A stretch of 64,000 nucleotides of DNA. It comes from a virus. Lineage: Duplodnaviria > Heunggongvirae > Uroviricota > Caudoviricetes. Below, in pieces: positions 24,384 through 64,000 of the stretch (its first letter is position 1; each line of letters begins with the position of its first letter). The stretch lies in the IMG/VR virus record IMGVR_UViG_3300030019_000001; one strand, given 5' to 3'. The notes below the pieces were generated by a model. The model saw only the letters and a program-made list of their open reading frames with translations. It made no database searches and was not told the DNA's origin. Made by a program: the position numbers and the translations under genes.

Positions 24384-24665
24384 ATGAATAAGCTTGATTT
24401 AAGTGTAGGAGATATTCTAATATCATTAGATGATTGGACAAAATATGATTTAGGTTTTCAAAATCACACATTTATAAAAGGTAATAAATATAAATATGCA
24501 CATTATTGCCTTGAATATAAATGTTATACAGTAGAATCAGAAATATATATTTATTCTAATCGTAATTGTAATTTAGCCTTATTAACTGAAGAAGAAATAA
24601 TTGAGCATTTTGATTATAAATCAATTCAAAGAAAGAGGAAGTTAGAAAAATTAAATATTTTATAA
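24384..24665 (+). CDS. hypothetical protein, RKxKL tail
   Basis: ATG 24384 behind TATCTTTG(24355); ends QRKRKLEKLNIL. Confidence 0.7.
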   Translation: MNKLDLSVGDILISLDDWTKYDLGFQNHTFIKGNKYKYAHYCLEYKCYTVESEIYIYSNRNCNLALLTEEEIIEHFDYKSIQRKRKLEKLNIL

Positions 24666-24971
24666 ATTATATTTGTTTATATCATTTTTACATTTAACAA
24701 ATTCTTTATCTTTATCAAATGCTAATACATTCTTACTATCAATATAATATCCGTTAATATGTTCATCGTCATATAAATCAATTAGATATATTTGTCTGTT
24801 TCCTGATACTATTTTACTGTCAATTATTTTATATACATTATCAGTTAACATTTTCTTGTAAATATTACCTATATTATCATTGCTGAATTTTAGATTATTC
24901 ACATTAATAATAACATAATCTCCAACTTCTGCATATTCATAATTATTTTCAAATGTTTTAATGTGTTTCAT
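24660..24971 (-). CDS. doubly tagged cassette protein (array 1), GDYV type
   Basis: MKHIKTFE..NKYNL. Confidence 0.8.
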   Translation of the reverse strand: MKHIKTFENNYEYAEVGDYVIINVNNLKFSNDNIGNIYKKMLTDNVYKIIDSKIVSGNRQIYLIDLYDDEHINGYYIDSKNVLAFDKDKEFVKCKNDINKYNL

Positions 24972-25249
24972 AAATTAAATTTGTTTGCTTGTAGAATTTC
25001 TTCTAATTCTTTCTTATCACTTGACCAATATAATATATCTTTTCTATTTGTTAAATATATTGAATATGGATCAATATAATCATAATCTATTCTATATTGA
25101 TTAGGTAAATGATTTATTAATACTCCAATGTTGTTTGATATAAATTTTGCGAATTTACTATCCCATGTATTATTACCACCACAAATAACATAATCACCTT
25201 TTTCTGGTATATAATAATTAATTCTTTCAAATGTTTTTATATATTTCAT
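24968..25249 (-). CDS. doubly tagged cassette protein (array 1), GDYV type
   Basis: MKYIKTFE..NKFNL. Confidence 0.8.
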   Translation of the reverse strand: MKYIKTFERINYYIPEKGDYVICGGNNTWDSKFAKFISNNIGVLINHLPNQYRIDYDYIDPYSIYLTNRKDILYWSSDKKELEEILQANKFNL

Positions 25250-25539
25250 ATGTTAAATTTATTTGATTGTAATAATACTTCTAAATCTTCTTTGTTTTTT
25301 GATAAATGCATTATTTCATAATTGGATAAATACCAGTCATCTAATTGATTATCATTCAATTTTACTTTAATGATATATAAAAAACCACCCATATTTCTTT
25401 CTTTTGTTCCTATTATTTGATATACATGATTATTAATTTTATTGTCAATAAGATGATTCAATGTTTCTACATTTGGAATAATGTAATCACCAATTTCTGG
25501 AGTATTTTCAATATCTTCAAATTTTTTTAAGTATTTCAT
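25246..25539 (-). CDS. doubly tagged cassette protein (array 1), GDYV type
   Basis: MKYLKKFE..NKFNI. Confidence 0.8.
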   Translation of the reverse strand: MKYLKKFEDIENTPEIGDYIIPNVETLNHLIDNKINNHVYQIIGTKERNMGGFLYIIKVKLNDNQLDDWYLSNYEIMHLSKNKEDLEVLLQSNKFNI

Positions 25540-25847
25540 AAGTTGAATTTATTTGTTTCTGATTTAATCTTACAATAATCTATTTCTGATTCAGTCATTT
25601 TTTTAGAAATGAAATATATATTACCAGATATTTTTTGTTTAGTGATTAATGTTTCAAACACAATAAATATATTATCAATATCACTATTATTATGATTCGT
25701 CAAAAAATTCATTTCTATTATTTTTACAAATAAATTATCTTCAATTCTTTCTATATGACTTACATAATCAGGAATTATTTTTATTTTAACACAATCTCCT
25801 ACCTCATATTCTAAATTTTTATTTTTGAATGATTTTATGTATTTCAT
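25536..25847 (-). CDS. doubly tagged cassette protein (array 1)
   Basis: MKYIKSFK..GDCV..NKFNL. Confidence 0.8.
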   Translation of the reverse strand: MKYIKSFKNKNLEYEVGDCVKIKIIPDYVSHIERIEDNLFVKIIEMNFLTNHNNSDIDNIFIVFETLITKQKISGNIYFISKKMTESEIDYCKIKSETNKFNL

Positions 25848-26212
25848 ATATTAAATTTGTTAATGTTATTTTTAAGTTCTATTTTATATTTTAATTCTTC
25901 TATTGTTTTTCCAAATGCATTTATATCTTCATAATTAAATATTTTATTGTAACCTCCATAAGGTTTATCATATTGTAAAAATTTTTTTACATCTTCTGGA
26001 ACATCAAAACCATATGTCACACCTATTCTTTTATCATTAAAGGTACTATGAATTTTTCCAGGAAAATTAAGAAGATATTTTTTCAAATTAACAATATCTT
26101 TATCATCATAGTATCTTCTTAAATGATTAATAAATTTTTTACCTATTATAGATACATAATCTCCAACTTCAGGCTCATTTATATTATCTTCAAATTTTTT
26201 CAAGTATTTCAT
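25844..26212 (-). CDS. doubly tagged cassette protein (array 1), GDYV type
   Basis: MKYLKKFE..NKFNI. Confidence 0.8.
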   Translation of the reverse strand: MKYLKKFEDNINEPEVGDYVSIIGKKFINHLRRYYDDKDIVNLKKYLLNFPGKIHSTFNDKRIGVTYGFDVPEDVKKFLQYDKPYGGYNKIFNYEDINAFGKTIEELKYKIELKNNINKFNI

Positions 26213-26532
26213 ATATTGAATTTATTTGCGCTTATTTTAATTTTTAAATCTTCTTTATTTTTTGAAAATGCATATATCTCTTTATATTGAAAATTTTTAT
26301 AATATCCATGTTTTTTTGTATACCCTAATATTTCTGTCATATTATCAGGAATATTATCTCCATATGATATATTTACACCTTGACGATATTTTCCTATTGT
26401 AAAAAATTTAATTATTTTACCTGGATAATTAAGATAAAAATCTGAATTTTTATCATAACTAATATTCATTAAGACATAATCTCCAACTTTTGGGCTATCT
26501 TCAATCATTTCAAATTTCTTAATGTATTTCAT
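26209..26532 (-). CDS. doubly tagged cassette protein (array 1), close paralog of 26843
   Basis: MKYIKKFE..PKVGDYVL..NKFNI. Confidence 0.8.
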   Translation of the reverse strand: MKYIKKFEMIEDSPKVGDYVLMNISYDKNSDFYLNYPGKIIKFFTIGKYRQGVNISYGDNIPDNMTEILGYTKKHGYYKNFQYKEIYAFSKNKEDLKIKISANKFNI

Positions 26533-26846
26533 ATGTTAAATTTGTTTGCATCAATTTCATAATCTTCAACAGTTATTTCTATTACAGTCTCATTTGCTTT
26601 ATTTATGTTATTTGTCCAACTCCATTGATATTTTTTAGTATAATCATTGTATGTGTTATTTAAATATATAAATTTAAAATGTGAGTTATTCCAATATTGA
26701 GCGTATTTATTATTAATCCAATGAGATATTTCATCTTGTGTCATACCAATTTTAGTTATTGCAATAAAATATACTTCTAACGGATATGCTGGAATTTTAT
26801 AATGAATTGTATTATTTATTTTTTCAAATGATTTTATATATTTCAT
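26529..26846 (-). CDS. doubly tagged cassette protein (array 1), paralog of 62000
   Basis: MKYIKSFE..KIG..W..YEIDANKFNI. Confidence 0.8.
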   Translation of the reverse strand: MKYIKSFEKINNTIHYKIPAYPLEVYFIAITKIGMTQDEISHWINNKYAQYWNNSHFKFIYLNNTYNDYTKKYQWSWTNNINKANETVIEITVEDYEIDANKFNI

Positions 26847-27166
26847 AAGTTAAATTTATTTGATGCTATTTTTAGTTTTAAATCTTCTTTATTTTTAGAA
26901 AATATGAAGATATCTTCATAGTCAAAAATTTTATAATAACCACATCTTTTATTAAGTAATAATATATTTTTCATGTTATCAGGAATGTTTTTACCATATG
27001 ATATCATAACTGTAAACCTATATTTTTGTAGAGTAAAAAATTTAATAATTTGTCCTGGATTATTAGAGTAAAAATCATTTTCTTCATCATTATCAATTGA
27101 TATCAATACATAATCACCAACTTTTGGTTTATCTTCAGTATTTTCAAATTTCTTTATATATTTCAT
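26843..27166 (-). CDS. doubly tagged cassette protein (array 1 leader)
   Basis: MKYIKKFE..PKVGDYVL..NKFNL. Confidence 0.8.
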   Translation of the reverse strand: MKYIKKFENTEDKPKVGDYVLISIDNDEENDFYSNNPGQIIKFFTLQKYRFTVMISYGKNIPDNMKNILLLNKRCGYYKIFDYEDIFIFSKNKEDLKLKIASNKFNL

Positions 27167-27170
27167 ACTT

Positions 27171-27179
27171 TATATATTA
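27171..27179 (-). promoter_or_regulatory. TAATATATA motif, putative phage late promoter
   Basis: Ends 4 nt upstream of the array 1 ATG. Confidence 0.55.
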
Positions 27180-27252
27180 AAAAAACTTAATTAAATTCTT
27201 CAATTGAAATAATTGTTGTATTTTTGTGGACAATATTTAAAAAAGTAAAATT

Positions 27253-37099: not shown

Positions 37100-37420
37100 T
37101 TATATATTATATTTATCTGATGAATTTTTTATTTCTAGCGTTTCATATTCTTCTTTTGTTATAGTTTTATGTATTTCATAATCTCCAGTCCATACTACTT
37201 TTTTATCTGGTAATTTAATAACCCAATAAAACATATTATTATTTTCTGAAATGTCTATTATTTTACCTATAAGATATGTGTAATTATCACTTATATCTGG
37301 AAAATAAAGCTTATTCAAAATCACATAATCACTTAATTCGTATTCTGATGAATCATATGTTTTTATCCTTTTATTATCGTTCCAGACTTCAACTGTTTCA
37401 TATGCTTTAATATATTTCAT
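37100..37420 (-). CDS. doubly tagged cassette protein (array 2)
   Basis: MKYIKAYE..SDYVI..DKYNI. Confidence 0.8.
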   Translation of the reverse strand: MKYIKAYETVEVWNDNKRIKTYDSSEYELSDYVILNKLYFPDISDNYTYLIGKIIDISENNNMFYWVIKLPDKKVVWTGDYEIHKTITKEEYETLEIKNSSDKYNI

Positions 37421-37908
37421 AAGTTAAATTTGTTTGCAGTTTTTTTCATTAAATATTCTTTGTATTCTTCTGGATAATTATCTATTATATATTGAAGAAT
37501 AAAAGGATTTGATTCTTGAATATTATCAAAAATATCAACATCACTTTTATTTTTATTGTTTAAATTTATTCCAGATGAAATTAATAAATCAATTATATTA
37601 TTAATTTTATTTTTATATTTAGTATAAGTATATGTGTTTTGATTAACAATATAAAATATACAATTTTTATTGTTTTTATTTACTAAATTTATATCAGCAC
37701 CATTTTCTATTAACAATTTAATTGTACTATAATTTAGTTGTTGTGATGCGTTAATTAATGGCGTGTTATATCTGATACGATCAAAACAATTAACGTTAGC
37801 TCCATCTGTTATCAATTCTCTTACTTTTTGCAAAGATGCCTGTTTTGCTGAATATTTCAACAAATTATCATCCAATTCTTTCTGAGTATATGTTTTTATA
37901 TGTTTCAT
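37417..37908 (-). CDS. doubly tagged ankyrin-repeat protein
   Basis: GANVN..TPLINA..LLIENGADIN; ends KTANKFNL. Confidence 0.85.
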   Translation of the reverse strand: MKHIKTYTQKELDDNLLKYSAKQASLQKVRELITDGANVNCFDRIRYNTPLINASQQLNYSTIKLLIENGADINLVNKNNKNCIFYIVNQNTYTYTKYKNKINNIIDLLISSGINLNNKNKSDVDIFDNIQESNPFILQYIIDNYPEEYKEYLMKKTANKFNL

Positions 37909-38420
37909 AAATTGAATTTGTTCGTGTTGTTTTTCATGTTATACAATTCATATTGTTCTGGATATTTATGAATAATTTTTTCAAAATGTTCATCACTCAA
38001 ATATTCATGAAATTCATGATGGAATACATCCATAATATTCCAATCTGCGCCATTTTCAATTAATAGTTCCATTACATCAAAATGTCCTCTATCTGTAGCC
38101 CATATTAAAGCACTTCTGTTATCTTTATCTATATGATTTATATTAGCTCCTGAATTAATTAGTTCTTTTGCTATTTGCTCAAATATATTTCTATATTTAG
38201 ACTGGGTTTTTATATGACAGTCTAAAACAGCGCATGTAATTAAAGGAGTTCTTTCCATCCAATGTATATTAATATTATCAATAACACAATCATTGTCAAT
38301 AGCATATTTCACTTTTTTTAATAATTTTATTGCATCTGAATCACTATATACATCATCTTCTAAAATATAATTTAAATCTAAAGATGCATTATATTTTTCA
38401 AATTTTTTTAAATATCTCAT
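37905..38420 (-). CDS. doubly tagged ankyrin-repeat protein
   Basis: TPLITC..GANIN..SALIWA..GH..LLIENGADWN; ends NKFNL. Confidence 0.85.
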   Translation of the reverse strand: MRYLKKFEKYNASLDLNYILEDDVYSDSDAIKLLKKVKYAIDNDCVIDNINIHWMERTPLITCAVLDCHIKTQSKYRNIFEQIAKELINSGANINHIDKDNRSALIWATDRGHFDVMELLIENGADWNIMDVFHHEFHEYLSDEHFEKIIHKYPEQYELYNMKNNTNKFNL

Positions 38421-38923
38421 AAGTTGAATTTTTTTGCTTGTTTTCTTTCTGGATTTCTATCATAAAACCAATCCCAATATCCATTCAAATCTTCATATGG
38501 TAAATTATTATACTTACAACTAAATTGAGTTACAGTTTCTGGCATTTCTGGTAATTCAGATAAATTATTATTATCACATAAAAAATATACTAAATTATTT
38601 GGTAATTTTGGTATTTCAGTTAAATTATTATGCCCACATGAAAAATTTATCAATGAATCTGGTAGATCTGGCAATTCTGTCAAATCATTATGATGAATCA
38701 TTAAATTTGTTATTGTGTTTGGTAAAGTTGGCAATTTTTTTAACTCATTATCGCCACAAAACAATTCTTCTAATGTAGTTGGTAATTCTGGTAGATATCT
38801 TAATTTATTATGATGACATCCCAAATTCTTTAATGTATCAGGCAACTCAGGTAAAGAAGTTAATCCTTTACTTGAGTAATTCAATTCTGTTATTATACTT
38901 TCAAATCTTTTTATATATTTCAT
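38417..38923 (-). CDS. doubly tagged leucine-rich-repeat protein
   Basis: About five 20-aa LPELP..L..L.C..N.L repeats; MKYIKRFE..KKFNL. Confidence 0.9.
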   Translation of the reverse strand: MKYIKRFESIITELNYSSKGLTSLPELPDTLKNLGCHHNKLRYLPELPTTLEELFCGDNELKKLPTLPNTITNLMIHHNDLTELPDLPDSLINFSCGHNNLTEIPKLPNNLVYFLCDNNNLSELPEMPETVTQFSCKYNNLPYEDLNGYWDWFYDRNPERKQAKKFNL

Positions 38924-39279
38924 AAGTTGAATTTATTTATATCATTAATGTATGGTAATTCTTCTTTACTTGTTGGCGTCCAACCTTTGTCTGATTTTAC
39001 AATACTTCTAATTTTATCAAGTGACATATTTGGATTTATTAGTTCTTGTGATTTTTTATTTATTTTGAATTCAATTGATATAAGAAAATTATACTCACTT
39101 ATAGAATAAGCATAAGCATCTATTTTAATGAATTTATTATGATAAGATATATCATAATCTATTCTATTTTCATCTAATATCTCAATTTGTTTATACACAT
39201 TTTCAAATTTAAAATATACTTTGAAAAATATAGTACATCCAACATTGCTCATTTCATTAAATTGTTGATATGTTTTCAT
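38920..39279 (-). CDS. doubly tagged protein with T4 CTS-like N-terminus
   Basis: MKTYQQFNE..NKFNL. Confidence 0.8.
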   Translation of the reverse strand: MKTYQQFNEMSNVGCTIFFKVYFKFENVYKQIEILDENRIDYDISYHNKFIKIDAYAYSISEYNFLISIEFKINKKSQELINPNMSLDKIRSIVKSDKGWTPTSKEELPYINDINKFNL

Positions 39280-39707
39280 ATATTAAATTTATTTGAATTT
39301 ATAATAACATATAAGTCTTCTTTATTTATGATTGAAAAATTTTTATTTCTTTTTTTAATTGCATCTAAAACTTCATCTAAATTTTCACCATTGTATTCTA
39401 TGTTAATTTTAGTATTATAAGAAAAATTCATATTATAATAAGTTATATCTCTCTGTTCTTTATTTTTTGGTAATGCATAAATTTTAAACATTGTTTGAAA
39501 TTGTGTAGAGTTAATATAATTGTCTGTTGTACTAATTATAATATAATAAATATTATTTTCTTCTAATTTTTTGATATCTCGTTCTAAAAGAGGAAAATCA
39601 TTTTCTTCGTCATTATAAGAATAAAGGTTAAGAGTTATTCTATTTGTATTACTGTACATTGGTTCTCCATAATTTTCAGTTTCATTGAACTGTATAAATG
39701 TTTTCAT
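39276..39707 (-). CDS. doubly tagged protein, paralog of neighbours
   Basis: MKTFIQFNE..NSNKFNI. Confidence 0.8.
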   Translation of the reverse strand: MKTFIQFNETENYGEPMYSNTNRITLNLYSYNDEENDFPLLERDIKKLEENNIYYIIISTTDNYINSTQFQTMFKIYALPKNKEQRDITYYNMNFSYNTKINIEYNGENLDEVLDAIKKRNKNFSIINKEDLYVIINSNKFNI

Positions 39708-40090
39708 ATATTAAATTTATTTGAATTTATTATTAAATTTACATCTTCTAAATTTATAATATTCGCATTTTTTGATGTTTTTATTAATTCTATATTTTCT
39801 TCTGTTGTTAAGTCTTCATTAAATATACTTGATAGATTAAACATACCTATTAACTCAGAACTAATAATTTTAGATTCATTTTCATTACATGGAAATAAAT
39901 ATAAGTAAAAGAACTCATCTCCTTTAGTGGTATTATTAAATAGAACATATTCAATACTATATTTATTTGCTTGTTCAATGTCGTAATATATATCTGATAT
40001 TTTATATCTACCTGATTCATAATATCTTCTAAAATATATAGGAAAATGTTTATTTTTTATAGATTCATTGTATTGATTGAATGTTTTCAT
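39704..40090 (-). CDS. doubly tagged protein, paralog of neighbours
   Basis: MKTFNQYNE..NSNKFNI. Confidence 0.8.
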   Translation of the reverse strand: MKTFNQYNESIKNKHFPIYFRRYYESGRYKISDIYYDIEQANKYSIEYVLFNNTTKGDEFFYLYLFPCNENESKIISSELIGMFNLSSIFNEDLTTEENIELIKTSKNANIINLEDVNLIINSNKFNI

Positions 40091-40518
40091 AAGTTAAATT
40101 TATCTGTGACTTTATTTAATTCCCATTGATAATATGTAGTTTCTTTCAATTCTTCAAATTTATCTTGAGATGTTTTTAATGACGATGACAAAAATAATCT
40201 TTCAAACGTTGAATGATTTGGATTTATTATTTGTTTTCCAGTCTTTATTTTTTCATCTTCCCTTAATTCATGTTGTTCTAATTCACAAAAATAAGATAGA
40301 ATATCTATGTTTAATCTTAGATCCACTTCATCAAAAACTTCTGGATTTATAATTCTACATAATACTATATATTCATTGTATCTATGTTGCTTCCAATGAT
40401 AAGTATTAGATTTATATATCATGTAATATCCTGGTATATACTCATTTATCATATTATTGAATTTGTTCTTTGAATTCATTTTATCTTTATAATTATCATA
40501 TATTTTTAAATGGTTCAT
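40087..40518 (-). CDS. doubly tagged protein (divergent N-tag)
   Basis: MNHLKIYD..DKFNL. Confidence 0.75.
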   Translation of the reverse strand: MNHLKIYDNYKDKMNSKNKFNNMINEYIPGYYMIYKSNTYHWKQHRYNEYIVLCRIINPEVFDEVDLRLNIDILSYFCELEQHELREDEKIKTGKQIINPNHSTFERLFLSSSLKTSQDKFEELKETTYYQWELNKVTDKFNL

Positions 40519-40856
40519 AAGTTAAATTTGTTTGCTGTTTTTTTCATTAAATATTCTTTATATTCATCAGGATATTTTTTCATAATATAATCAAATTGTT
40601 TATCACTTAATAAATATGTAAAATCATATCCTTTGTTGTTAATAATATTCCAATCCGCTCCTGCTTCAATAAGTATATTAACAATACTCATAAAATCATG
40701 ATTTGCTGCATAAAATAATGGAGTTCTACCTTCAGCATCTTGAATGTTTATATCAGCATTAAGTCTAATTAAATATTCAACTCTTTTTGTGTTGTCATTT
40801 ACAATAGCATTAAATAAATCTACTTCTTTAGATTCAAACTTTTTTAAATATTTCAT
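40515..40856 (-). CDS. doubly tagged ankyrin-repeat protein
   Basis: ADINIQD..GRTPLFYAA..LIEAGADWN; ends KTANKFNL. Confidence 0.85.
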   Translation of the reverse strand: MKYLKKFESKEVDLFNAIVNDNTKRVEYLIRLNADINIQDAEGRTPLFYAANHDFMSIVNILIEAGADWNIINNKGYDFTYLLSDKQFDYIMKKYPDEYKEYLMKKTANKFNL

Positions 40857-41260
40857 AAATTAAATTTATTTGCTTCTCTAAACATATCAAAATTCTTTTT
40901 TGTTATCTGTTCTTCGATATCTAGAGTATTTCCTGATATCTTAAAGTTGTATATGTGATGATCAATATTTATTAAATTTAATCCATTGATAGTTTCTAAA
41001 TATTCTTCAATAATCTTAAAATTATTATGGTATTTTTTAAAAATTAATTCATCATTTGTTATTTCAATACAAAATTTTAAACCCTCAGAATTTATATCTT
41101 TGTTATAAAAAAATATCTCATTTCTAGAGTATTTTTTATTGTAATTTGTGGTTAAGTCATAATCTAAAGATGTTATGAAATTAATCATAAATTCTATAAA
41201 TATAGGATTATCTGATGTGTCTAATTTGTTTAACATTTCATATTTTTTTAAATATTTCAT
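40853..41260 (-). CDS. doubly tagged cassette protein (array 2)
   Basis: MKYLKKYE..ANKFNL. Confidence 0.8.
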   Translation of the reverse strand: MKYLKKYEMLNKLDTSDNPIFIEFMINFITSLDYDLTTNYNKKYSRNEIFFYNKDINSEGLKFCIEITNDELIFKKYHNNFKIIEEYLETINGLNLINIDHHIYNFKISGNTLDIEEQITKKNFDMFREANKFNL

Positions 41261-42908: not shown

Positions 42909-42972
42909 ATATAATTGTGCTGTTTTATTGTTTATATTATATATAAAAAAATAAGATTGTTATTTTTATTTT

Positions 42973-42981
42973 TAATATATA
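42973..42981 (+). promoter_or_regulatory. TAATATATA motif, putative late promoter
   Basis: Upstream of the plus-strand tagged genes at 43015. Confidence 0.5.
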
Positions 42982-43014
42982 GTATATCAAAAATATAAAT
43001 TATAAAATATAATT

Positions 43015-43314
43015 ATGAAATATATAAAAAAATATGAATTTGTTAATAACCAGATAGAAATACCTGTTGATTATTATGTTATACCTGTTCTTAAAGGAAT
43101 AAATTATGATATTCAATATAAAACCAAAATAAGCAATAATATTTTTAAAATAATAAATAAAAGTAAATCACAATATAAAATTGATTTTAAAGATTATTAT
43201 CATGAAGATGGTTTTTGGATAGATAAAAAAGATGTATACAAATACTCATCAGTTAGAAAAATATTAGAAGATAGACTGAAATTAATTAATAAATCCAACA
43301 ATTTTAATGTATGA
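43015..43314 (+). CDS. doubly tagged cassette protein (plus-strand sub-array)
   Basis: MKYIKKYE..NNFNV. Confidence 0.75.
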   Translation: MKYIKKYEFVNNQIEIPVDYYVIPVLKGINYDIQYKTKISNNIFKIINKSKSQYKIDFKDYYHEDGFWIDKKDVYKYSSVRKILEDRLKLINKSNNFNV

Positions 43315-43664
43315 TAACAGATTTTAAAATATATGAAAAAAATAAAAAATCATCAATACTACCATCTATTGGAGATTATGTTATATGTGAAAGTATTGAT
43401 TTTACTGAACTAAATAGTTTTACATTAAGTAATATAGGACAGATAATAGAAATTATTGATATTAAATATCGTTGGGATAGATTTATAGTTCAATTTGATT
43501 ATATTCCTGATTATTTAGAATCATATCAAATTTATCATAGCGAAATAGATTATAGCAAAAAATATAAAAATGCCATGTCTTTTTCATTAGAAGAATTGAT
43601 TCATATATCTGATGATAAATCAAAATTAGAATTTTTAACACAAACTAATAAATTTAATATATGA
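43311..43664 (+). CDS. doubly tagged cassette protein, GDYV type
   Basis: MITDFKIYE..IGDYVIC..NKFNI. Confidence 0.8.
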   Translation: MITDFKIYEKNKKSSILPSIGDYVICESIDFTELNSFTLSNIGQIIEIIDIKYRWDRFIVQFDYIPDYLESYQIYHSEIDYSKKYKNAMSFSLEELIHISDDKSKLEFLTQTNKFNI

Positions 43665-49657: not shown

Positions 49658-49710
49658 GTTATAAGCTATTTCACTTATAAACATAAGTTATAAGCTATTT
49701 CACTTATAAA
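49658..49710. repeat. 24-bp direct repeat, each copy a 7-8-7 inverted repeat
   Basis: GTTATAAGCTATTTCACTTATAAA at 49658 and 49687. Confidence 0.75.
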
Positions 49711-50009
49711 TTGAATTTTTTTATATCTTTTTTGAAATTGTGATCTTTAATGAATTTATCAACATCATCATCAATTACTGTATATTCATTGTTTTTTAGT
49801 GATACCCTATCATATTTATATTTACCTTTTTCATCTAAGAATACACCAACATCACCATAACCAAATGGATGTGTCAAAGTACCAGTTAAATACTCACCAT
49901 CATCTTTAAATTTAATTTTGGTGCCTACTGGGTATTTAGATTTACCTGCATATACAATATCATCATCAAATGTTGTAAAATTATGCTCATTAAATTTTTC
50001 TACTTTCAT
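49704..50009 (-). CDS. doubly tagged SH3-like protein (array 3)
   Basis: MKVEKFNE..YPVGTKI..KKFNL. Confidence 0.8.
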   Translation of the reverse strand: MKVEKFNEHNFTTFDDDIVYAGKSKYPVGTKIKFKDDGEYLTGTLTHPFGYGDVGVFLDEKGKYKYDRVSLKNNEYTVIDDDVDKFIKDHNFKKDIKKFNL

Positions 50010-50011
50010 AT

Positions 50012-50389
50012 TTATAAATTAAATTTTTCTGATTTTTTTATCATTAAATACTCATTGTATTTAACAGGATATTTTTTTGTTATTTTTTCTATTACTTTAT
50101 CTCCATCTATATGATCATTTATATAGTCAATAAAATCATATTTTGAAATATCTTTTATGTACCAATCAGGATTATATTTTAATATTAGAAATAAAATATT
50201 CCATTCTCCTTTATAAGAAGCATATAATAATGCAGAATTTCTTCCATCTATATTACTATTAACATCAAAGCCAGAATCTAATAATTTTTTAGTTTTAGAA
50301 TAATTACCATGATATACAGCATTAATTAATTCATTTTTAATTGTATAAAATTCATTCTTTTTACGTTCAAATTTTTTTATATATTTCAT
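50012..50389 (-). CDS. doubly tagged ankyrin-repeat protein
   Basis: AVYHGN..LLDSGFDVN..SALLYAS; ends EKFNL. Confidence 0.85.
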   Translation of the reverse strand: MKYIKKFERKKNEFYTIKNELINAVYHGNYSKTKKLLDSGFDVNSNIDGRNSALLYASYKGEWNILFLILKYNPDWYIKDISKYDFIDYINDHIDGDKVIEKITKKYPVKYNEYLMIKKSEKFNL

Positions 50390-50859
50390 ATGTTAAATTT
50401 TTTTGTCGACTTATAATAATCAAAATCAGAGCTATTTATTTTATTTATTATTTCAGGTAATTTATCTAGTGGTATCCAATATCTATTATCTCCAGCAGAT
50501 GAAACATCTTCAATAGAACTATTCTTTACAATATTTCCTAAATAGTCTTTAATATCTTCCATAAAATTCATTATTGGATGGTAACAATATAAAATAGAAT
50601 TTCTATCATAATTATAATGCAATTCCAAAACTTCAGCAGCATCATCTATATCATGTGGGTCAATAAAAATTCTTACAACATCATAATATTTTTTATTACT
50701 ACTTTCATATGTATTTGAATAAACATCCCATTCCATATCAATATTTTTCTCTATAAATTTAGTTAATACATCACCAAAATTAATAACTTCGTGAGGTAAT
50801 TTCTTCCTTTTTTTAAATATGTCAGTGAATGCATTTTCAAACGTTTTAATGTGTTTCAT
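50386..50859 (-). CDS. doubly tagged cassette protein (array 3)
   Basis: MKHIKTFE..KKFNI. Confidence 0.8.
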   Translation of the reverse strand: MKHIKTFENAFTDIFKKRKKLPHEVINFGDVLTKFIEKNIDMEWDVYSNTYESSNKKYYDVVRIFIDPHDIDDAAEVLELHYNYDRNSILYCYHPIMNFMEDIKDYLGNIVKNSSIEDVSSAGDNRYWIPLDKLPEIINKINSSDFDYYKSTKKFNI

Positions 50860-51257
50860 AGATTAAATTTATTTGTGTGTTTTAGAGCAGGTATATAATC
50901 TAATAAATCCTGTAAATTATCTGAATCTGTCATTATATAACCAAGTTTATATTTATTTAAATTGTAATGCTTATCTTTTCTTTTTTCATTTTTCAATTTA
51001 TCTGTGTTCAAATTATATGTATATAATTTGTTAGTCACAATAAAAAGGTTAGTGTGATCATATACTGCTTCCATTCTATCTTTTTCTAATATAAAATATG
51101 TTCCATTATCTATATTACCCGTTCTATCTTTAAAAAATAAATATTTCTTCATATCTTTATATCTTTGTCTAAGATAATTATCTTCCGCTTTTTGACTATC
51201 CAAAATAGCTTTCTCATCATCTGATATTTCACTTTCAAATTTTTTTATATATTTCAT
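50856..51257 (-). CDS. doubly tagged cassette protein (array 3)
   Basis: MKYIKKFE..NKFNL. Confidence 0.8.
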   Translation of the reverse strand: MKYIKKFESEISDDEKAILDSQKAEDNYLRQRYKDMKKYLFFKDRTGNIDNGTYFILEKDRMEAVYDHTNLFIVTNKLYTYNLNTDKLKNEKRKDKHYNLNKYKLGYIMTDSDNLQDLLDYIPALKHTNKFNL

Positions 51258-51832
51258 AAATTGAATTTTTTTATATCATTTTTAAAATTATATTCTTTAA
51301 TAAATTCTTCATATTTATCTGGATATTTTTCTATTATTTTTTTCATATATGCAGGTTGTAAATGCATCAAAAAAGTATTATTATAATTATCAGATATATT
51401 CCAATCTGCACCACTTTCAATTAAGTTTTCAATTATTTTAAAAGCCTTTTTATCTGTGTAGCTAGAAATCATAATTAATGCAGTTTCGCCGTCATCATTT
51501 TTAATATTCAAATCTGCGTGAGCATCTATTAAATCTTGAACAAATTCTTCTTTTTTATTTCTTGCTGCTATCATCAATGGAGTGACTCCATTAGTACATG
51601 TACAATTTACATCTGCTCCTGATTCTATCAAAAATTTAAACACGTTATATAAACTAAACCTAACTGACTGAAGCAAAGGTGTTTCACCAGTACTATCTTT
51701 AATATTAAGATTAATATTAGGTATTTCAGATACTAATTCTTTAATTTTAGGTAAATTAATATTATGGATATACCAAAATATATCTTTTTCATCATAAAAA
51801 GTTGATAATTCAAATGTTTTTATATATTTCAT
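51254..51832 (-). CDS. doubly tagged ankyrin-repeat protein (about 4 repeats)
   Basis: GETPLL, GVTPLMIAA, GETALI; ends KKFNL. Confidence 0.9.
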   Translation of the reverse strand: MKYIKTFELSTFYDEKDIFWYIHNINLPKIKELVSEIPNINLNIKDSTGETPLLQSVRFSLYNVFKFLIESGADVNCTCTNGVTPLMIAARNKKEEFVQDLIDAHADLNIKNDDGETALIMISSYTDKKAFKIIENLIESGADWNISDNYNNTFLMHLQPAYMKKIIEKYPDKYEEFIKEYNFKNDIKKFNL

Positions 51833-52143
51833 ATGTTGAATTTTTTTGTTGATAATTCTAATTCTAATTTTTCTTTTGAGATAGCATAAGAGTAAACATC
51901 TTCTAAGTTTAACTCTATTTGATATATATAATATACTCTAGATTTATAAAAATATTCCTTGATTTCTTCTGGTACATATTTATAACCAAATTTAATCCAT
52001 ATTCCTCTTACTTCGATAATTTTACTAATATTATTTTGAAAAAATTCTGTAACTCCAGGATTAGTTGTTTTAAAATCGATTATAGCATAATCTCCTTTTT
52101 TTATTTTTCTATCTAATTTTTCAAATGTTTTTATATATTTCAT
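51829..52143 (-). CDS. doubly tagged cassette protein, GDY type
   Basis: MKYIKTFE..KKGDYA..KKFNI. Confidence 0.8.
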   Translation of the reverse strand: MKYIKTFEKLDRKIKKGDYAIIDFKTTNPGVTEFFQNNISKIIEVRGIWIKFGYKYVPEEIKEYFYKSRVYYIYQIELNLEDVYSYAISKEKLELELSTKKFNI

Positions 52144-52574
52144 AAATTATATTTATTTGTATTTTTATATAAATTAAGCTCTTTTACTATATCTGGATAT
52201 TTATCGTCAAACCATTTTTTTAATTTATCATTAGTAATCAAATCATAAAATGTATCACCTCCAAACTCGAGCTTATAATTAACTCCATTATCCAATAATA
52301 ATTCAATCATTTTCTTTTTTTCATATAAATCAATATCTCGTATTATAACCTCAATTAATACATTCTTTCCATCATAAATATTATTTATTTTATTTTTATA
52401 TATTGGTAATAAATATTCAAATCTTTTAAGATTTCCAGCATGTACAGCCCCAATGAGTTTATTATATCCATATTCGGTTTCTAACTCAGTTTCTATATAT
52501 TCATCCCACATATCTACATCTTTAGATTTAAATACGTTAGTTAATCTATTTTCAAATTTTTTTAAATATTTCAT
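52140..52574 (-). CDS. doubly tagged ankyrin-like protein
   Basis: AVHAGN..LLLDNGVN; ends NKYNL. Confidence 0.75.
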   Translation of the reverse strand: MKYLKKFENRLTNVFKSKDVDMWDEYIETELETEYGYNKLIGAVHAGNLKRFEYLLPIYKNKINNIYDGKNVLIEVIIRDIDLYEKKKMIELLLDNGVNYKLEFGGDTFYDLITNDKLKKWFDDKYPDIVKELNLYKNTNKYNL

Positions 52575-52921
52575 ATGTTGTATTTCAATGCTTCTTTTTT
52601 TCTGTTGAACTCTTCTATCTCATTTGTATTTAGCTTTCTTATTATTTCATCTGACTCAACACCATAAGAATCATTTTTTTCATTATTATAATTATAAAAA
52701 GTTACACTATATAAATAAAGTCCATTATTTAATTCAACAGTCTTATCCTTTATTAATGCAAATTCATCAATTGGTATAGAATTGCCATATTCATCAACTT
52801 CATCCATTTCATAATCATTATCTTTGTTATTAGATTTTATTTTAATTAAATCAAGTAGTACGTAATCTCCAGCCTTATAATCACTATATAATAATGATTC
52901 AAATGTTTTTAAGTATTTCAT
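52571..52921 (-). CDS. doubly tagged cassette protein (array 3 leader)
   Basis: ATG 52921 MKYLKTFE..KAGDYVL..LKYNI; TAATATATA at 52929-37. Confidence 0.8.
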   Translation of the reverse strand: MKYLKTFESLLYSDYKAGDYVLLDLIKIKSNNKDNDYEMDEVDEYGNSIPIDEFALIKDKTVELNNGLYLYSVTFYNYNNEKNDSYGVESDEIIRKLNTNEIEEFNRKKEALKYNI

Positions 52922-53041
52922 ATGACTATATATATTAAATATAATCATTAAAAATAAAATTTAAAAAAACAAATAATATTTTTTTATTCGAATTATATTT
53001 AGTATCTTTGCATTCTAATAATCTCTAATAATATAAATATT

Positions 53042-59316: not shown

Positions 59317-59351
59317 TTTATTGTATCTTTGTTTTTACTTAAAATTATTAT

Positions 59352-59576: not shown

Positions 59577-59583
59577 ATTACAT

Positions 59584-60742: not shown

Positions 60743-60744
60743 AT

Positions 60745-60776
60745 AAAAACTCATCAATTTAATTGATGAGTTTTTT
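60745..60776. terminator. bidirectional intrinsic terminator
   Basis: AAAAACTCATCAATT-T-AATTGATGAGTTTTT. Confidence 0.75.
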
Positions 60777-61290
60777 ATATGTTAAATTTTGATGTAGCCA
60801 AATAGGTAGGTAAATTCTCTGTTATTTCATCATATAAAACTTTAAAATAATCAATTAAATCACCAATTGTTTCAGATTTTTTTATAATATCTTCTATCAT
60901 AGGAAAATATCTTTCATTCAATGCTGTGTAAGCTTTATCTGAAATATCTGATAGTTCTATTTTATTTCCATTTCTTATCAAGAAGTTATTTATAATAGAG
61001 GAATGATATTTAACCCTATTACTTTCATATTTTGGATCTAATGATAATATAGCAAAGTATTTTTCTGATTCTGTTATTTTAATATCTCGTAATTCAGTAT
61101 CATTTAAATATTTAGATTTGTTTTTTATTTCAAACATTATACCATAAATTGGAGATTTTGACATATAATCATTAAAATAAGTCATATTACCTTTATCATT
61201 TACTGTAATTGTAAAATCCTCATTTTTATATAATATAATATCTTCTTTTTCCTTTTCTTTTTGTTTCTCAAAAGTTTTTAAGTATTTCAT
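60775..61290 (-). CDS. doubly tagged cassette protein (array 4)
   Basis: MKYLKTFE..SKFNI. Confidence 0.8.
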   Translation of the reverse strand: MKYLKTFEKQKEKEKEDIILYKNEDFTITVNDKGNMTYFNDYMSKSPIYGIMFEIKNKSKYLNDTELRDIKITESEKYFAILSLDPKYESNRVKYHSSIINNFLIRNGNKIELSDISDKAYTALNERYFPMIEDIIKKSETIGDLIDYFKVLYDEITENLPTYLATSKFNI

Positions 61291-61293
61291 GAA

Positions 61294-61506: not shown

Positions 61507-61604
61507 AATTATAACTCTATATTAATTTTATCTTCATTTTTAAATAAAAAAATGATAAAATATTGATATGGTTATAATTATATATTAATTTTTTATTTTG
61601 GTTT

Positions 61605-62003
61605 TTATATGTTAAATTTATGCATAGAATTATATAACTCTCCTAATTCAATCACCTTTTTTATTGGTATTTTTATTGACATGCTTAACATTCTTTTATT
61701 AATAAAATTATCTTTTATGTCATAATAACTCTCTTTTATATCATTATCTAAATTGTTTTCAGTTAAGAACTCTTCAAATTTTTCAAAATCTTCCTCATCT
61801 TCAAAATACATAGTATCAAAATAAAATGTAAATTCAACATCGTTATCAACATCATAATCAATCCAATCAGTGGCTGACCATACGCATTCTTAAAATCCTT
61901 CTATTTTTGGTATAACTTCTTCTAAATAATAAGCAGTATTATTTAGTAATGTTTCTTTTTCTTCTTGATTTAAAGAACTTTCAAAAGTTTTTATGTATCT
62001 CAT
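61605..62003 (-). pseudogene. doubly tagged cassette interrupted by in-frame TAA (61892-61890)
   Basis: MRYIKTFE..PKIEGF*ECVW..MYFEDEE..HKFNI in one frame. Confidence 0.7.
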
Positions 62004-62338
62004 AAGTTAAATTTATCTGCATCTATTTCAAATTCTCTAAGTTTAATTCTACCTCCAAATATATATTTATCTCTGTCATCTTTATCTAGCTGCAATCTCC
62101 ATTCAGTTATAATATCATAGTCATCAATCAAACTATCATAATTTTTAATTTCTTCTTTATATACGTATACAATATGATCTTCATTTAAGTACTGTTCATC
62201 CCATTCCGCAATTAAATCATTTGGAACTCCGATTTTTCTTAATGATAAAATAAAATATGGACGTAACAATGTCACTTCCCAATATCTATTTTCATTATCC
62301 CACTGTTTATATATTTCAAATTTTTTTATATGTTTCAT
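62000..62338 (-). CDS. doubly tagged cassette protein, paralog of 26529
   Basis: MKHIKKFE..FEIDADKFNL. Confidence 0.8.
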   Translation of the reverse strand: MKHIKKFEIYKQWDNENRYWEVTLLRPYFILSLRKIGVPNDLIAEWDEQYLNEDHIVYVYKEEIKNYDSLIDDYDIITEWRLQLDKDDRDKYIFGGRIKLREFEIDADKFNL

Positions 62339-62670
62339 AAGTTAAATTTTCTTGCGTTTATTTTATATTCTAAATCTGTTTTGTTATCAGAAAATTCAAT
62401 TATACTACTCATTAAAAAAACTTTTATTCCTGTATTTTCATGATTTTTATAATCATTATATCCAAATAAGCTTGCAATTTCCATAGGAATATTTTCATAT
62501 TCAACTTCTACTGATATGAAACCACGTTTATCATCAATTTTTACGATTTTACCAACTTCATTATCAATAAATTCATTTAGATTAGGATTCATCATTGTAG
62601 AATTCATTAATACATAATCTCCTTCCTTTGGTTCACTATTTTTTTCTTCAAACTTCCTTATATATTTCAT
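62335..62670 (-). CDS. doubly tagged cassette protein, GDYV type
   Basis: MKYIRKFE..EGDYVL..YENIP..RKFNL. Confidence 0.8.
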   Translation of the reverse strand: MKYIRKFEEKNSEPKEGDYVLMNSTMMNPNLNEFIDNEVGKIVKIDDKRGFISVEVEYENIPMEIASLFGYNDYKNHENTGIKVFLMSSIIEFSDNKTDLEYKINARKFNL

Positions 62671-62996
62671 ATGTTAAATTTATTTGCTTCAATTTTATAT
62701 TTTAATGTTTCTAAATCTTTATCATAATCAACTATGCTAACAATATTAAATCTCTTTCTATCATCTATAAAAAAATTCTTTATATTTTCAGGAATGTTTT
62801 CATATTTTACACGAACATAATTATTATGTACACCAAATTCTAAGTCATCTACTACTATTCCTATGGTATTATCTATGAATTTTTTTAACTGATTAATAGA
62901 AGTATTTCTATCATTTTTTATGTCATATACTGTCAATATATAATCACCAATCTCAGGTATATTTGTATTCAATTCAAATTTTTTAATATATTTCAT
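62667..62996 (-). CDS. doubly tagged cassette protein, GDYV type
   Basis: MKYIKKFE..IGDYIL..YENIP..NKFNI. Confidence 0.8.
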   Translation of the reverse strand: MKYIKKFELNTNIPEIGDYILTVYDIKNDRNTSINQLKKFIDNTIGIVVDDLEFGVHNNYVRVKYENIPENIKNFFIDDRKRFNIVSIVDYDKDLETLKYKIEANKFNI

Positions 62997-63304
62997 AAGT
63001 TAAACTTATTTGCTTTTAATTTCATTTCTAACTCTTCTATTGTTTTACCATAAGCAACTAATAACTCCATATCAAATGTTATTGTGTCATCATGAAAAAA
63101 CAAAGCTATGTTGCCTGGTATATTTTCATATCTAACTCTAATTTTTGGATCTTTAGTCAATTTATCAATATAAGCATTAAGATATACTCCATAATTATGA
63201 GTTACAAAATATTCAACTTCAGATATTCCATAACTATTCATTAATACATAATCACCTCTTTCTGGTAAATCTATATTCTGTTCGAATTTTTTTATATATT
63301 TCAT
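62993..63304 (-). CDS. doubly tagged cassette protein, GDYV type
   Basis: MKYIKKFE..RGDYVL..YENIP..NKFNL. Confidence 0.8.
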   Translation of the reverse strand: MKYIKKFEQNIDLPERGDYVLMNSYGISEVEYFVTHNYGVYLNAYIDKLTKDPKIRVRYENIPGNIALFFHDDTITFDMELLVAYGKTIEELEMKLKANKFNL

Positions 63305-63654
63305 AAGTTAAATTTATTTGCGTTTATTTCAATTTCTAATTCTTCTTTATTTTCTGAAAATTTATAAATCATATACGAAGGAAATTTTATTTTATATGAG
63401 TTATGCTTTTTTTCTTTTGTAAACAAATCAATTTCACTTTTTGGTACACCATAATATCTAATATCAATATCATCGTATACTTTATATTTATTTCCTTCAT
63501 TTTTAGAATATACAGGAGTAATTTTAATTACTTCACCGATTGAATTGTTAATATAACTGGTGAAAATCACATCATTAGCCTTTGATATAGCCAAAACATA
63601 ATCTCCTATTTTTAGAATATTTTCAAATTTTTCAAATTTTTTTATATATTTCAT
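63301..63654 (-). CDS. doubly tagged cassette protein, GDYV type
   Basis: MKYIKKFE..IGDYVL..NKFNL. Confidence 0.8.
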   Translation of the reverse strand: MKYIKKFEKFENILKIGDYVLAISKANDVIFTSYINNSIGEVIKITPVYSKNEGNKYKVYDDIDIRYYGVPKSEIDLFTKEKKHNSYKIKFPSYMIYKFSENKEELEIEINANKFNL

Positions 63655-64000
63655 AAGTTAAATTTATCTATATTATTGTATAATCCAGGAGTACGATAAA
63701 GATTTTTGAATATGTGTGGACTATAATATTTCTCCTTTTTACAATCATAAACAAAAATCAGTTCAATCTTTCTGTAATCTTTAAAAAAAATATAAAGATC
63801 ACCAAATTCTGCTGATTCATCTTCTAAGTTTCCTTCATAATTTATGCCCAATACAAAATCTGGTCCTTCACTTGCAAAATCAAAAGAGTTGACAGTATTG
63901 ATGCCATCTTTTATTGATTGTAATGTTCCATCATACCAATCGCAATTCTCCTGAGCAACTTCATCGTATTCTTCATCTGTTGCACCGCCAATTGGCATTC
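63651..64000 (-). CDS. C-tagged cassette protein, 5' end outside window
   Basis: Open to the window edge; ends IDKFNL. Confidence 0.7.
   Translation of the reverse strand, partial: MPIGGATDEEYDEVAQENCDWYDGTLQSIKDGINTVNSFDFASEGPDFVLGINYEGNLEDESAEFGDLYIFFKDYRKIELIFVYDCKKEKYYSPHIFKNLYRTPGLYNNIDKFNL

What the first reader, a model, noticed from the sequence alone, without database searches (positions are those of the whole stretch)
24660..64000. Doubly tagged cassette arrays: 37 unrelated small proteins share an N-terminal capsid-targeting-like peptide and a C-terminal KFN[LI] signal
Seen: four arrays (24660-27166, 8 genes; 37100-41260, 10 genes, plus 43015-44008, 3 genes; 49704-52921, 8 genes; 60775-64000, 8 genes). 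These genes end in K-[FY]-N-[LI] (one ends NFNV). The 36 with a visible start begin with M-K-[YHT]-[ILF]-K-x-[FY]-E or a variant. The middles are ankyrin, LRR, SH3-like or unique. The C-tag varies synonymously (AAA/AAG, TTT/TTC, AAT/AAC) and is kept in genes whose stop does not overlap a start (24660, 37100, 44008, 49704, 50012, 60775, 61605), so selection appears to act on the peptide. Known: T4 internal proteins carry a 10-aa N-terminal capsid-targeting sequence (MKTYQEFIAE) that prohead protease removes after Glu; they are injected with the DNA, and IPI* blocks GmrSD restriction. Inference: a greatly expanded library of virion-packaged, co-injected effectors with a second C-terminal address (F-x-hydrophobic-COOH, PDZ class II-like) for docking, ejection order or turnover. 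I know of no described role for such a C-tag.
Basis: partly seen in the sequence, partly recalled or inferred. Interest (0 to 1): 0.92.

Follow-up and report, generated by a model that had tools for sequence, protein, structure and literature searches.

The report
Two-ended peptide tags on huge-phage cassettes
In a very large, AT-rich bacteriophage, about one gene in six encodes a small soluble protein that carries the same short flexible peptide at its start and another at its very end; these look like address or docking labels, and neither their reader nor their purpose has been described.

Summary
All 37 genes are there. The 330-kb record holds 103 ORFs ending K-[FY]-N-[LIVM], against 0.23 expected by chance. 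They fall into 60 unrelated sequence clusters.

Selection acts on the peptides, not the DNA. In 110 homologue pairs, dN/dS is 0.19 (N-tag) and 0.09 (C-tag) against 0.42 for the bodies, and dS is not reduced. In AlphaFold models of two unrelated folds, the tags are low-confidence ends outside the domain.

Points not in the summaries of earlier reports that I saw:
- Tagged genes never sit behind the host-type (Bacteroidota) promoter box. They sit behind a phage-specific motif.
- Their bodies are acidic, unlike the basic T4 internal proteins.
- The leader lacks the T4 protease site.
- N-tag variants swap between orthologues, and whole cassettes come and go at the junctions.
- The phage lineage encodes ClpS and ClpC, and a near relative encodes ClpP. 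This gives a second candidate reader.

Capsid loading in the T4 manner remains my first choice (about 35%) and is unproven. Docking to, or degradation by, the Clp machine is a serious rival (about 25%).

The scan had already reported this tag system from other windows of the same genome. I found no mention of it in the literature searched.

The parts
24660..27166 (-). Array 1: 8 tagged cassettes joined by ATGA overlaps (7 SH3-like, 1 unique).
27171..27187 (-). M1 promoter-like motif (T-run followed by AATATATA) 4 nt before the first ATG of array 1.
37100..41260 (-). Array 2: 10 tagged cassettes (ankyrin, LRR, three MKT[YF]-leader paralogues, unique folds). It lies directly downstream of the PPK2-HAD gene on the same strand.
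41265..42908 (-). Untagged PPK2 + HAD_SAK_2 gene that heads the transcription unit containing array 2. An M1 motif ends 29 nt upstream of its ATG.
42970..42982 (+). M1 promoter-like motif upstream of array 3, in a divergent promoter region.
43015..44008 (+). Array 3: 3 tagged cassettes. One ends NFNV. Two carry the MIT[DN]FKIYE leader variant.
49704..52921 (-). Array 4: 8 tagged cassettes.
52926..52939 (-). M1 promoter-like motif 4 nt before the true start (52921) of the array-4 head gene.
60775..61290 (-). Terminal tagged cassette of array 5. A bidirectional hairpin terminator at 60745-60775 follows it, overlapping the stop codon.
61605..62003 (-). One tagged cassette (MRYIKTFE ... HKFNI) interrupted by an in-frame TAA at codon 38. 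It is a probable pseudogene and is absent from the relative's array.
62000..64000 (-). Array 5, upstream part: 6 tagged cassettes. The last runs off the window; in the genome it is full length with an MKYIKRFE start.

Best explanation
Each cassette encodes a small, soluble, acidic binding-type domain (SH3/chromo-like barrel, ankyrin, LRR, or an unknown fold). The domain sits between two short flexible peptides that a common piece of phage machinery reads.

My preferred reading is capsid loading. In this reading, the N-terminal peptide (M-K-[YH]-[IL]-K-x-[FY]-E) works like the T4 capsid-targeting sequence. It docks the protein to the assembling prohead core, so that a large and fast-changing repertoire of binders is packed and delivered with the DNA. 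The C-terminal K-[FY]-N-[LI]-COOH is a second docking peptide. It could bind the capsid interior or portal, or a partner met after injection.

Shown here:
- The tags exist and sit only at the protein ends.
- They are under purifying selection as peptides.
- They lie outside the fold.
- The two tags are coupled to each other, and cassettes turn over at the junctions.
- The genes belong to a non-host promoter class.

For: - The tags sit at the termini and are far above chance.
- Selection is on the peptide: dN/dS is 0.19 and 0.09 in the tags against 0.42 in the bodies, with dS at least as high as in the bodies. Synonymous codons are mixed.
- The C-tag is kept in 50 genes without an ATGA overlap, many of them followed by terminators.
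- 43 untagged ATGA overlaps use other termini.
- AlphaFold models of two unrelated folds have bodies with block-mean pLDDT above 90 and tag ends at 41-55.
- The leader shares the overall shape of the T4 CTS MKTYQEFIAE (PMC8442874). The variant MKTYQQFNE at 38920-39279 is replaced by MKYIKEYE in the orthologue of a relative.
- Cassettes are gained and lost at the junctions between relatives of about 65% identity. This matches T-even internal proteins, which are diverse apart from the CTS (PMC3012670).
- By nearest promoter motif, 89 tagged genes sit behind the phage-specific M1 motif, 0 behind the host-type box, and 13 behind neither. M1 also precedes tail-fibre genes.
- Giant phages can carry more than 40 MDa of ejection proteins (abstract of PMC7411985).
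Against: - The leader has no L/I-x-E site. The residue three before the Glu is K or R in 60 of 60, and position 9 shows no preference for small residues.
- The cargo bodies are acidic (median pI 4.86, 89% below 7), whereas T4 internal proteins are highly basic (PMC8442874).
- About 18% of the genes in this record are tagged (102 of 576). That is far more kinds of protein than any known packaged set.
- M1 also drives the DNA polymerase, helicase and topoisomerase genes. It marks 'not host-type early', not 'late'.
- No head module was found in any available fragment, so no link to a prohead protease could be made.
- The C-tag has no counterpart in T4.
- The near-obligatory pairing of the two tags is not predicted by a leader that is simply cut off.
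Confidence: 0.35

Rival explanations
1. The tags are docking peptides or degrons for the phage's own ClpS-ClpC-ClpP machine. There are two versions. In one, the tagged proteins are short-lived and are cleared on schedule. In the other, they are adaptors: the variable domain binds a host protein and the constant tags hand it to the unfoldase, as the flexible C-terminal peptide of SspB docks on ClpX.
For: - A near relative, G001, carries 41 KFN tags. It encodes a bona fide ClpP (183 bits, intact Ser-His-Asp context) behind a host-type early promoter box. It also encodes an 844-aa Clp ATPase with a G-I-G-F-G ClpP-docking loop.
- A 92%-identical ClpC (P0280) sits in a cluster whose longest contig is 711,471 bp, the same length as the longest contig carrying this window's own protein. 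The copy of that locus I could read, on a 16.9-kb contig, has a ClpS homologue just upstream that keeps the N-D-D ... H binding motif.
- The tags are flexible terminal peptides, which is the form known Clp signals take (my knowledge: ssrA, the ClpX N- and C-motifs, the SspB XB peptide).
- Binder-type, soluble, acidic cargo fits cytoplasmic adaptors.
Against: - There is no sequence match to known degrons.
- ClpS needs an N-terminal F, L, W or Y, which would require an unknown cut after M-K.
- No ClpP on the 711-kb contig appeared among the 120 best ClpP homologues.
- Many phages and bacteria have Clp systems and no such tags.
- Nothing explains why both ends would be tagged.
Confidence: 0.25
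2. The tags address the proteins to some other phage-made assembly or route. Candidates are a cytoplasmic compartment, the GOLLD RNA nanocage encoded between arrays 3 and 4, or an export or ejection channel.
For: - There are two mutually exclusive tag systems in one genome: KFN-type and the RKxKLxxL helix, with 0 of 54 overlap. This suggests two destinations.
- A GOLLD RNA (243 bits) lies at 48838-49273, next to array 4, and is conserved in relatives.
- GOLLD forms a hollow 14-mer cage whose contents are unknown (PMC12286853).
Against: - GOLLD occurs in many phages that are not known to have these tags.
- Acidic cargo is a poor fit for an RNA cage.
- No evidence of a compartment or secretion gene is linked to the arrays.
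- The adjacency is a single observation.
Confidence: 0.12
3. The tags are structural. They would pair with each other within or between proteins, as a clasp, a head-to-tail chain, or a Lys-Asn isopeptide link as in HK97 capsids and pilins.
For: - Lys and Glu are conserved in the N-tag, and Asn is invariant and Lys nearly so in the C-tag.
- The two tags almost always occur together.
Against: - In both monomer models the two ends are unpaired and of low confidence.
- There is no significant covariation between N- and C-tag variants within proteins or across junctions.
Confidence: 0.05
4. The conserved junction is a nucleic-acid signal, either a recombination site or a translational coupling element, and the peptides are by-products.
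For: - 53 of 103 junctions are ATGA overlaps.
- Cassettes are exchanged exactly at the junctions.
- The final Ile codon is ATA in 23 of 25 non-overlapping genes, and the stop is TAA in 48 of 50.
Against: - dS in the tags is not reduced (0.61 and 0.83, against 0.57 in the bodies), while dN is 2-3 times lower.
- Third codon positions vary freely.
- The tags persist before terminators and after promoters.
- 43 untagged ATGA overlaps exist.
Confidence: 0.03

Closest known systems
T4 capsid-targeting sequence (CTS, MKTYQEFIAE) on internal proteins IPI, IPII, IPIII and Alt, and the polymorphic internal-protein loci of T-even phages
   Same: A short N-terminal leader starting M-K, with an aromatic residue and Phe at position 7 followed by Glu. 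It is shared by otherwise unrelated small proteins, in loci where whole genes are exchanged between related phages.
   Different: There is no L/I-x-E protease site. The cargo is acidic, not basic. There are 100 or more tagged genes per half genome rather than a handful. An obligatory second tag sits at the C-terminus. No T4-type head genes were seen in the DNA available.
Clp protease recognition signals and adaptor docking peptides (ssrA tag, ClpX N- and C-motifs, ClpS N-degrons, the C-terminal XB peptide of SspB)
   Same: Short, unstructured peptides at the extreme N- or C-terminus that an AAA+ machine reads. The phage lineage encodes ClpS, ClpC and (in a near relative) ClpP.
   Different: There is no sequence match to any described signal. 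The tags are at both ends. No binding has been shown.
Encapsulin cargo-loading peptides and bacterial microcompartment encapsulation peptides
   Same: A short terminal peptide on a flexible end directs diverse cargo into a protein shell. For encapsulins the shell has the HK97 fold and the peptide is C-terminal.
   Different: The motif differs. There is no shell gene in the same operon. The scale is hundreds of cargo genes.
Poxvirus ankyrin/PRANC (F-box-like) proteins and other variable-binder plus constant-docking-motif families
   Same: A large paralogous set of ankyrin and other binding domains, each ending in one constant C-terminal element. This layout suits substrate adaptors.
   Different: The constant element here is only 4-6 residues, not a folded domain. 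It is combined with an N-terminal tag, and the context is prokaryotic.

Membership tests
T4-type CTS internal proteins | Conserved leader of about 10 aa at the N-terminus, shared by unrelated proteins | tested here: met
T4-type CTS internal proteins | Leader ends in the gp21 site L/I-x-Glu | tested here: not met
   The residue three before the Glu is K (57) or R (3) of 60.
T4-type CTS internal proteins | Genome encodes an S77 prohead protease and a gp23-type head | tested here: inconclusive
   No S77 match in G000 or in 5 relatives' fragments. The one Gp23 match in G000 is below the cut-off (14.6 bits). The records are 30-46% complete.
T4-type CTS internal proteins | Cargo is small and highly basic | tested here: not met
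   Median pI 4.86, with 89% below 7. The T4 internal proteins are described as highly basic in PMC8442874.
T4-type CTS internal proteins | Polymorphic loci: genes are exchanged between related phages and the tag is kept | tested here: met
T4-type CTS internal proteins | Proteins are present in virions, cleaved, and injected | not testable with these tools
Clp degrons / adaptor docking peptides | Unstructured peptide at a protein terminus | tested here: met
Clp degrons / adaptor docking peptides | A matching AAA+ protease is available in the infected cell | tested here: met
   ClpC (IGF loop) and ClpP are in the near relative G001. A 92%-identical ClpC is in a cluster whose longest contig is 711,471 bp, and a ClpS homologue lies just upstream in the copy of that locus I read.
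Clp degrons / adaptor docking peptides | Sequence matches a described signal, or binding is shown | not tested
   No resemblance to ssrA (from my memory of that sequence).
PDZ class II ligands | Hydrophobic-x-hydrophobic-COOH, plus a PDZ reader | tested here: inconclusive
   F-N-[LI]-COOH fits the pattern. No PDZ_2 domain was found in 5 phage fragments. Host PDZ proteins were not examined.
Encapsulin cargo-loading peptide | C-terminal peptide with the known consensus, and cargo encoded next to the shell gene | tested here: not met
   The motif differs. No shell gene was identified among the genes next to the arrays that I scanned.
Integron-like cassette arrays | A conserved DNA recombination site between cassettes, plus an integrase | tested here: not met
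   Junction conservation is at the peptide level, and dS is not reduced. Among the genes I scanned, the only transposase-type gene is a TnpB-like ORF at 21911-23371, about 1.3 kb from array 1.

The most novel reading that the evidence does not exclude
The phage runs its own targeted-degradation system. More than a hundred fast-evolving binder proteins (ankyrin, LRR, SH3-like and unknown folds) each grip a different host protein, for example a defence protein. Their constant terminal tags plug into the phage-encoded ClpS-ClpC-ClpP machine, which destroys the captive. This would be a viral, PROTAC-like adaptor library.
Probability: 0.1. Interest if true: 0.95.

Novelty: new variant of a known kind. 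Interest (0 to 1): 0.78.

Why it matters
If the tags load cargo into the capsid, this phage group delivers an unusually large and rapidly shuffled set of proteins with its DNA. The 8-residue and 4-residue labels would then be simple handles for packing foreign proteins into huge-phage heads.

If the tags dock on the phage Clp machine instead, they would mark a virus-run system for selective proteolysis.

In either case:
- One SH3-like subfamily alone has 2,445 clusters (at 50% identity) in public metagenomes.
- Of the 154 members I could inspect, nearly all keep both tags.
- The literature searched does not mention them.
- They assign roughly one sixth of the genes in this phage record, otherwise 'hypothetical', to a single pathway that can now be tested.

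Tried and rejected
- Complex prediction with two copies of the SH3-like member gave no verdict. It is not used as evidence either way.
- I looked for a reader or head module. Peptidase_S77, Peptidase_S78, Terminase_6N and PDZ_2 gave no match. Gp23 gave one weak match below the cut-off. This covered G000 and up to 8 related fragments. PHROG scans of 30 large proteins found only tail-fibre-like, replication and metabolic genes.
- GenBank phages hold no DNA or protein match, so no cultured relative with virion proteomics is available.
- The sigma-70-type promoter scan is at chance level (181 found, 189 expected).
- F/Y and I/L variants do not covary between N- and C-tags, either within proteins or across junctions.
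- I tested whether AAC enrichment avoids creating the M1 motif. It does not: the AAC fraction in this genome is 0.53 before both ATA and TTA.
The vault gene was not located.
- Pfam scans of N-tag-only and larger tagged proteins found nothing beyond ankyrin.
- A literature search for the tag strings returned only chance matches.


Full report
**What is there.** The window is the minus strand of positions 266206-330205 of a 330-kb IMG/VR virus record, estimated 46% complete. A protein of the window also occurs on a contig of 711,471 bp. GC content is about 23%.

The arrays contain 8, 10+3, 8 and 8 genes.

Three details need correcting:
- The ORF at 61605-61811 is the distal part of a single cassette, 62003-61605. 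That cassette starts MRYIKTFE and has an in-frame TAA at codon 38. A relative lacks this cassette.
- The gene cut by the window end is complete in the genome and starts MKYIKRFE.
- The head gene of array 4 starts at 52921.

**More than chance.** In the whole record, 103 ORFs of 40 aa or more end K[FY]N[LIVM]. The internal frequency of that 4-mer predicts 0.23. Internal copies are few and mostly KYN.

A loose N-core motif (hydrophobic, K/R/Q, x, F/Y, E/N/D within the first 11 residues) is present in:
- 79 of 102 tagged genes
- 17 of 420 other genes
- 0 of 54 genes carrying the genome's other C-terminal tag, RKxKLxxL

The two tags of this system are therefore tightly coupled, and the two tag systems exclude each other.

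With the tags removed, the 103 proteins fall into 60 BLAST clusters: 23 SH3-like, 13 ankyrin, and the rest pairs or singletons. Pfam confirms ankyrin and LRR.

**Peptide or DNA?** Within the tags, first and second codon positions are nearly fixed while third positions vary:
- Asn: AAT 51, AAC 52
- Phe: TTT 73, TTC 20
- Tyr: TAT 33, TAC 14
- Several Ile and Leu codons are used

I paired 110 homologues from this genome and from related IMG/VR contigs.

| Region | dS | dN | dN/dS |
|---|---|---|---|
| N-tag | 0.61 | 0.11 | 0.19 |
| C-tag | 0.83 | 0.07 | 0.09 |
| Bodies | 0.57 | 0.24 | 0.42 |

Synonymous sites in the tags are thus as free as elsewhere, and replacement sites are 2-3 times more constrained.

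Further points against a nucleic-acid signal:
- Fifty tagged genes do not overlap the next start, and many are followed by hairpin terminators, yet they keep the tag.
- Forty-three ATGA overlaps between untagged genes use quite different termini, so the tags are not needed for translational coupling.

Two codon oddities remain unexplained:
- C-ending codons are enriched in the tags. AAC is about 50% in the C-tag against 13% in the bodies, and TAC is 30% in the N-tag against 10%.
- The last Ile codon is ATA in 23 of 25 non-overlapping genes, with TAA as the stop in 48 of 50.

**Structure.**
- The AlphaFold model of the SH3-like member 62993-63304 has a mean pLDDT of 85. Residue blocks 21-90 average 91-95, while residues 1-10 and 101-103 are below 50.
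- The ankyrin member 40515-40856 has a mean pLDDT of 90. Residues 1-6 are below 50 and the last three average 54.
- In two unrelated folds, then, the tags are flexible ends and do not pair with each other.
- Fold searches give only weak SH3/chromo/PsaE-like matches.
- The tagged bodies are acidic (median pI 4.86, 89% below 7) and none has a membrane segment.

**Spread.** A profile of the SH3-like subfamily finds 2,445 clusters (at 50% identity) at E below 0.001 in public metagenomes. Of 154 sequences fetched, 146 end [KR][FY]N[LIVM], mostly KYNL, and 143 have the leader. All those examined come from metagenomes, and none carries an informative name. GenBank phages hold no relative, and the papers searched do not mention the tags.

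**Evolution of the arrays.** Relatives with about 65% protein identity keep gene order but differ by whole cassettes inserted or lost exactly at the junctions. One relative has 4 cassettes where array 1 has 8.

The orthologue of 38920-39279, whose leader MKTYQQFNE is the closest to the T4 sequence, carries the ordinary MKYIKEYE. The orthologue of 40087 (MNHLKIYD) carries MKYIKIYE. The leader variants are therefore interchangeable.

**Transcription.** Two motifs are enriched upstream of operon heads.
- **M2** is TATCTTTG(T/C)A, about 25 nt before the ATG. It fits the Bacteroidota -7 box TAnnTTTG (from my own knowledge).
- **M1** is a T-run followed by (A/T)ATATATA, about 20 nt before the ATG.

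Genes classed by their nearest upstream motif:

| Gene class | M1 | M2 | neither |
|---|---|---|---|
| KFN-tagged | 89 | 0 | 13 |
| RKxKL-tagged | 14 | 18 | 22 |
| Other | 152 | 117 | 151 |

Eight of the 13 tagged genes classed 'neither' belong to array 4, which does have an M1 motif before its true start.

M1 also precedes tail-fibre-like genes as well as the polymerase, helicase and topoisomerase genes. So the arrays are not under host-type early promoters, but M1 is not late-specific.

**Comparison with T4.** PMC8442874 gives the CTS as MKTYQEFIAE, cut once by the head protease, on highly basic internal proteins. PMC3012670 describes internal proteins as diverse defence proteins sharing only the CTS.

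Shared with T4:
- A short M-K leader with an aromatic residue, Phe at position 7 and then Glu
- Unrelated cargo
- Polymorphic loci

Different from T4:
- No L/I-x-E site; the residue three before the Glu is K or R in 60 of 60
- Acidic cargo
- 18% of genes tagged
- An obligatory C-tag

No S77 or S78 protease, Gp23-type capsid protein above cut-off, or Terminase_6N-type large terminase was found. However, every record searched is a fragment.

**A second candidate reader.** The related record G001 is 235 kb and carries 41 KFN tags and 48 RKxKL tags. It shares only 13 of 305 genes with this record, so it represents a different part of the same kind of genome. It encodes:
- A genuine ClpP behind an M2 box
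- An 844-aa Clp ATPase with a Clp_N domain and the G-I-G-F-G ClpP-docking loop

A 92%-identical ClpC (P0280) belongs to a cluster whose longest contig is 711,471 bp, the same length as the longest contig carrying this window's own protein. The copy of that locus I could read lies on a 16.9-kb contig. There a 97-aa ClpS homologue that keeps N-D-D ... H sits just upstream. The same ClpS-ClpC pair occurs in a more distant 531-kb phage contig. Within 22 kb of that pair there are RKxKL-tagged proteins, a protein ending NKYNL and a protein starting MKILKTFE.

The best cellular ClpC match is from a Bacteroidia bacterium at 52% identity, which agrees with the promoter evidence for the host.

Known Clp signals and adaptor docking peptides are short, flexible terminal peptides (my knowledge), so a Clp reader is a real alternative. 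Against it:
- There is no sequence match to known signals.
- No ClpP on the 711-kb contig appears among the top 120 homologues.
- No binding test was possible.

**Verdict.** Capsid loading is still the single best-fitting model (about 0.35), but it fails two T4 membership features and is untested. Clp docking or degradation is at about 0.25. Another destination is at about 0.12. Structural pairing and nucleic-acid signals are unlikely.

Earlier agents of this scan reported the same tag system from other windows of this genome and also read it as CTS-like.

Noticed in passing
window 48838-49273 (+), with terminator 49283-49319: A GOLLD RNA (Rfam RF02032, 243 bits against a gathering score of 150) lies in an ORF-poor stretch between arrays 3 and 4. 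Its end is 430 nt from the end of array 4, and it is conserved in three relatives. GOLLD forms a hollow 14-mer RNA cage whose contents are unknown (PMC12286853).
   Followed up: partly
window 45872-46150 and 47516-47858: The ORF-poor region upstream of GOLLD holds tandem repeats of 110 nt (2.7 copies) and 83 nt (4 copies). No Rfam family reached its gathering score there. They may belong to the variable 5' half of GOLLD or be other RNAs.
   Followed up: no
window 1-21000, 53374-53670, 59092-60046 (+ strand genes): A second shared C-terminal tag, a basic helix of the form R-K-x-K-L-x-x-L, is found on 54 genes in the record. None of them has the KFN-system leader (0 of 54). These genes sit behind both promoter classes and have neutral to basic bodies.
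   Followed up: partly
L141:1408-4514 (a 16.9-kb contig carrying the 92%-identical ClpC, P0280); L127:9391-10146 and L133:14277-16811 (relative G001): The phage lineage encodes a ClpS homologue, a ClpC/ClpA-type unfoldase with an IGF loop and, in the relative, ClpP behind a host-type promoter box. Together these would make a complete N-degron-type protease system.
   Followed up: partly
whole record; for example window 27171-27187, 42970-42982, 52926-52939: There are two promoter-like motif classes. M2 is TATCTTTG(T/C)A, resembling the Bacteroidota -7 box. M1 is a T-run followed by (A/T)ATATATA. They split the genes into two sets.
   Followed up: partly
window 61605-62003 (-): A tagged cassette has a single in-frame TAA at codon 38. 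It is probably a young pseudogene.
   Followed up: partly
window 32397-33335, 34989-35711, 35951-36289, 41265-42908, 56424-57176, 57179-57982: An RNA-repair-type gene set lies between the arrays: polynucleotide kinase-phosphatase, a CCA/poly(A)-polymerase head domain, a cREC receiver domain, PPK2 fused to HAD_SAK_2, an HD domain and a microbial PARG-like domain.
   Followed up: no
window 21911-23371 (-): A TnpB/Cas12f-like ORF of 486 aa (OrfB_IS605 plus TNB domain) lies about 1.3 kb from array 1.
   Followed up: no
window 9193-9292 and 9424-9512 (+): There are two tRNA-like genes of about 90-100 nt (Rfam tRNA, 41 bits each). ARAGORN calls only the second, as tRNA-Phe with the unusual anticodon AAA.
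   Followed up: no
tag codons throughout the record: C-ending codons are enriched in the tags: AAC about 50% in the C-tag against 13% in gene bodies, and TAC 30% in the N-tag against 10%. The final Ile codon is almost always ATA, followed by TAA, even where no gene follows. The first may reflect accuracy selection. The second is unexplained.
   Followed up: partly
window 44003-44548 (-): An ORF of 181 aa has an N-terminal hydrophobic segment and an H-E-L-I-H motif, so it may be a membrane metalloprotease. It abuts array 3, overlapping its last codons on the opposite strand. It has no Pfam match.
   Followed up: no
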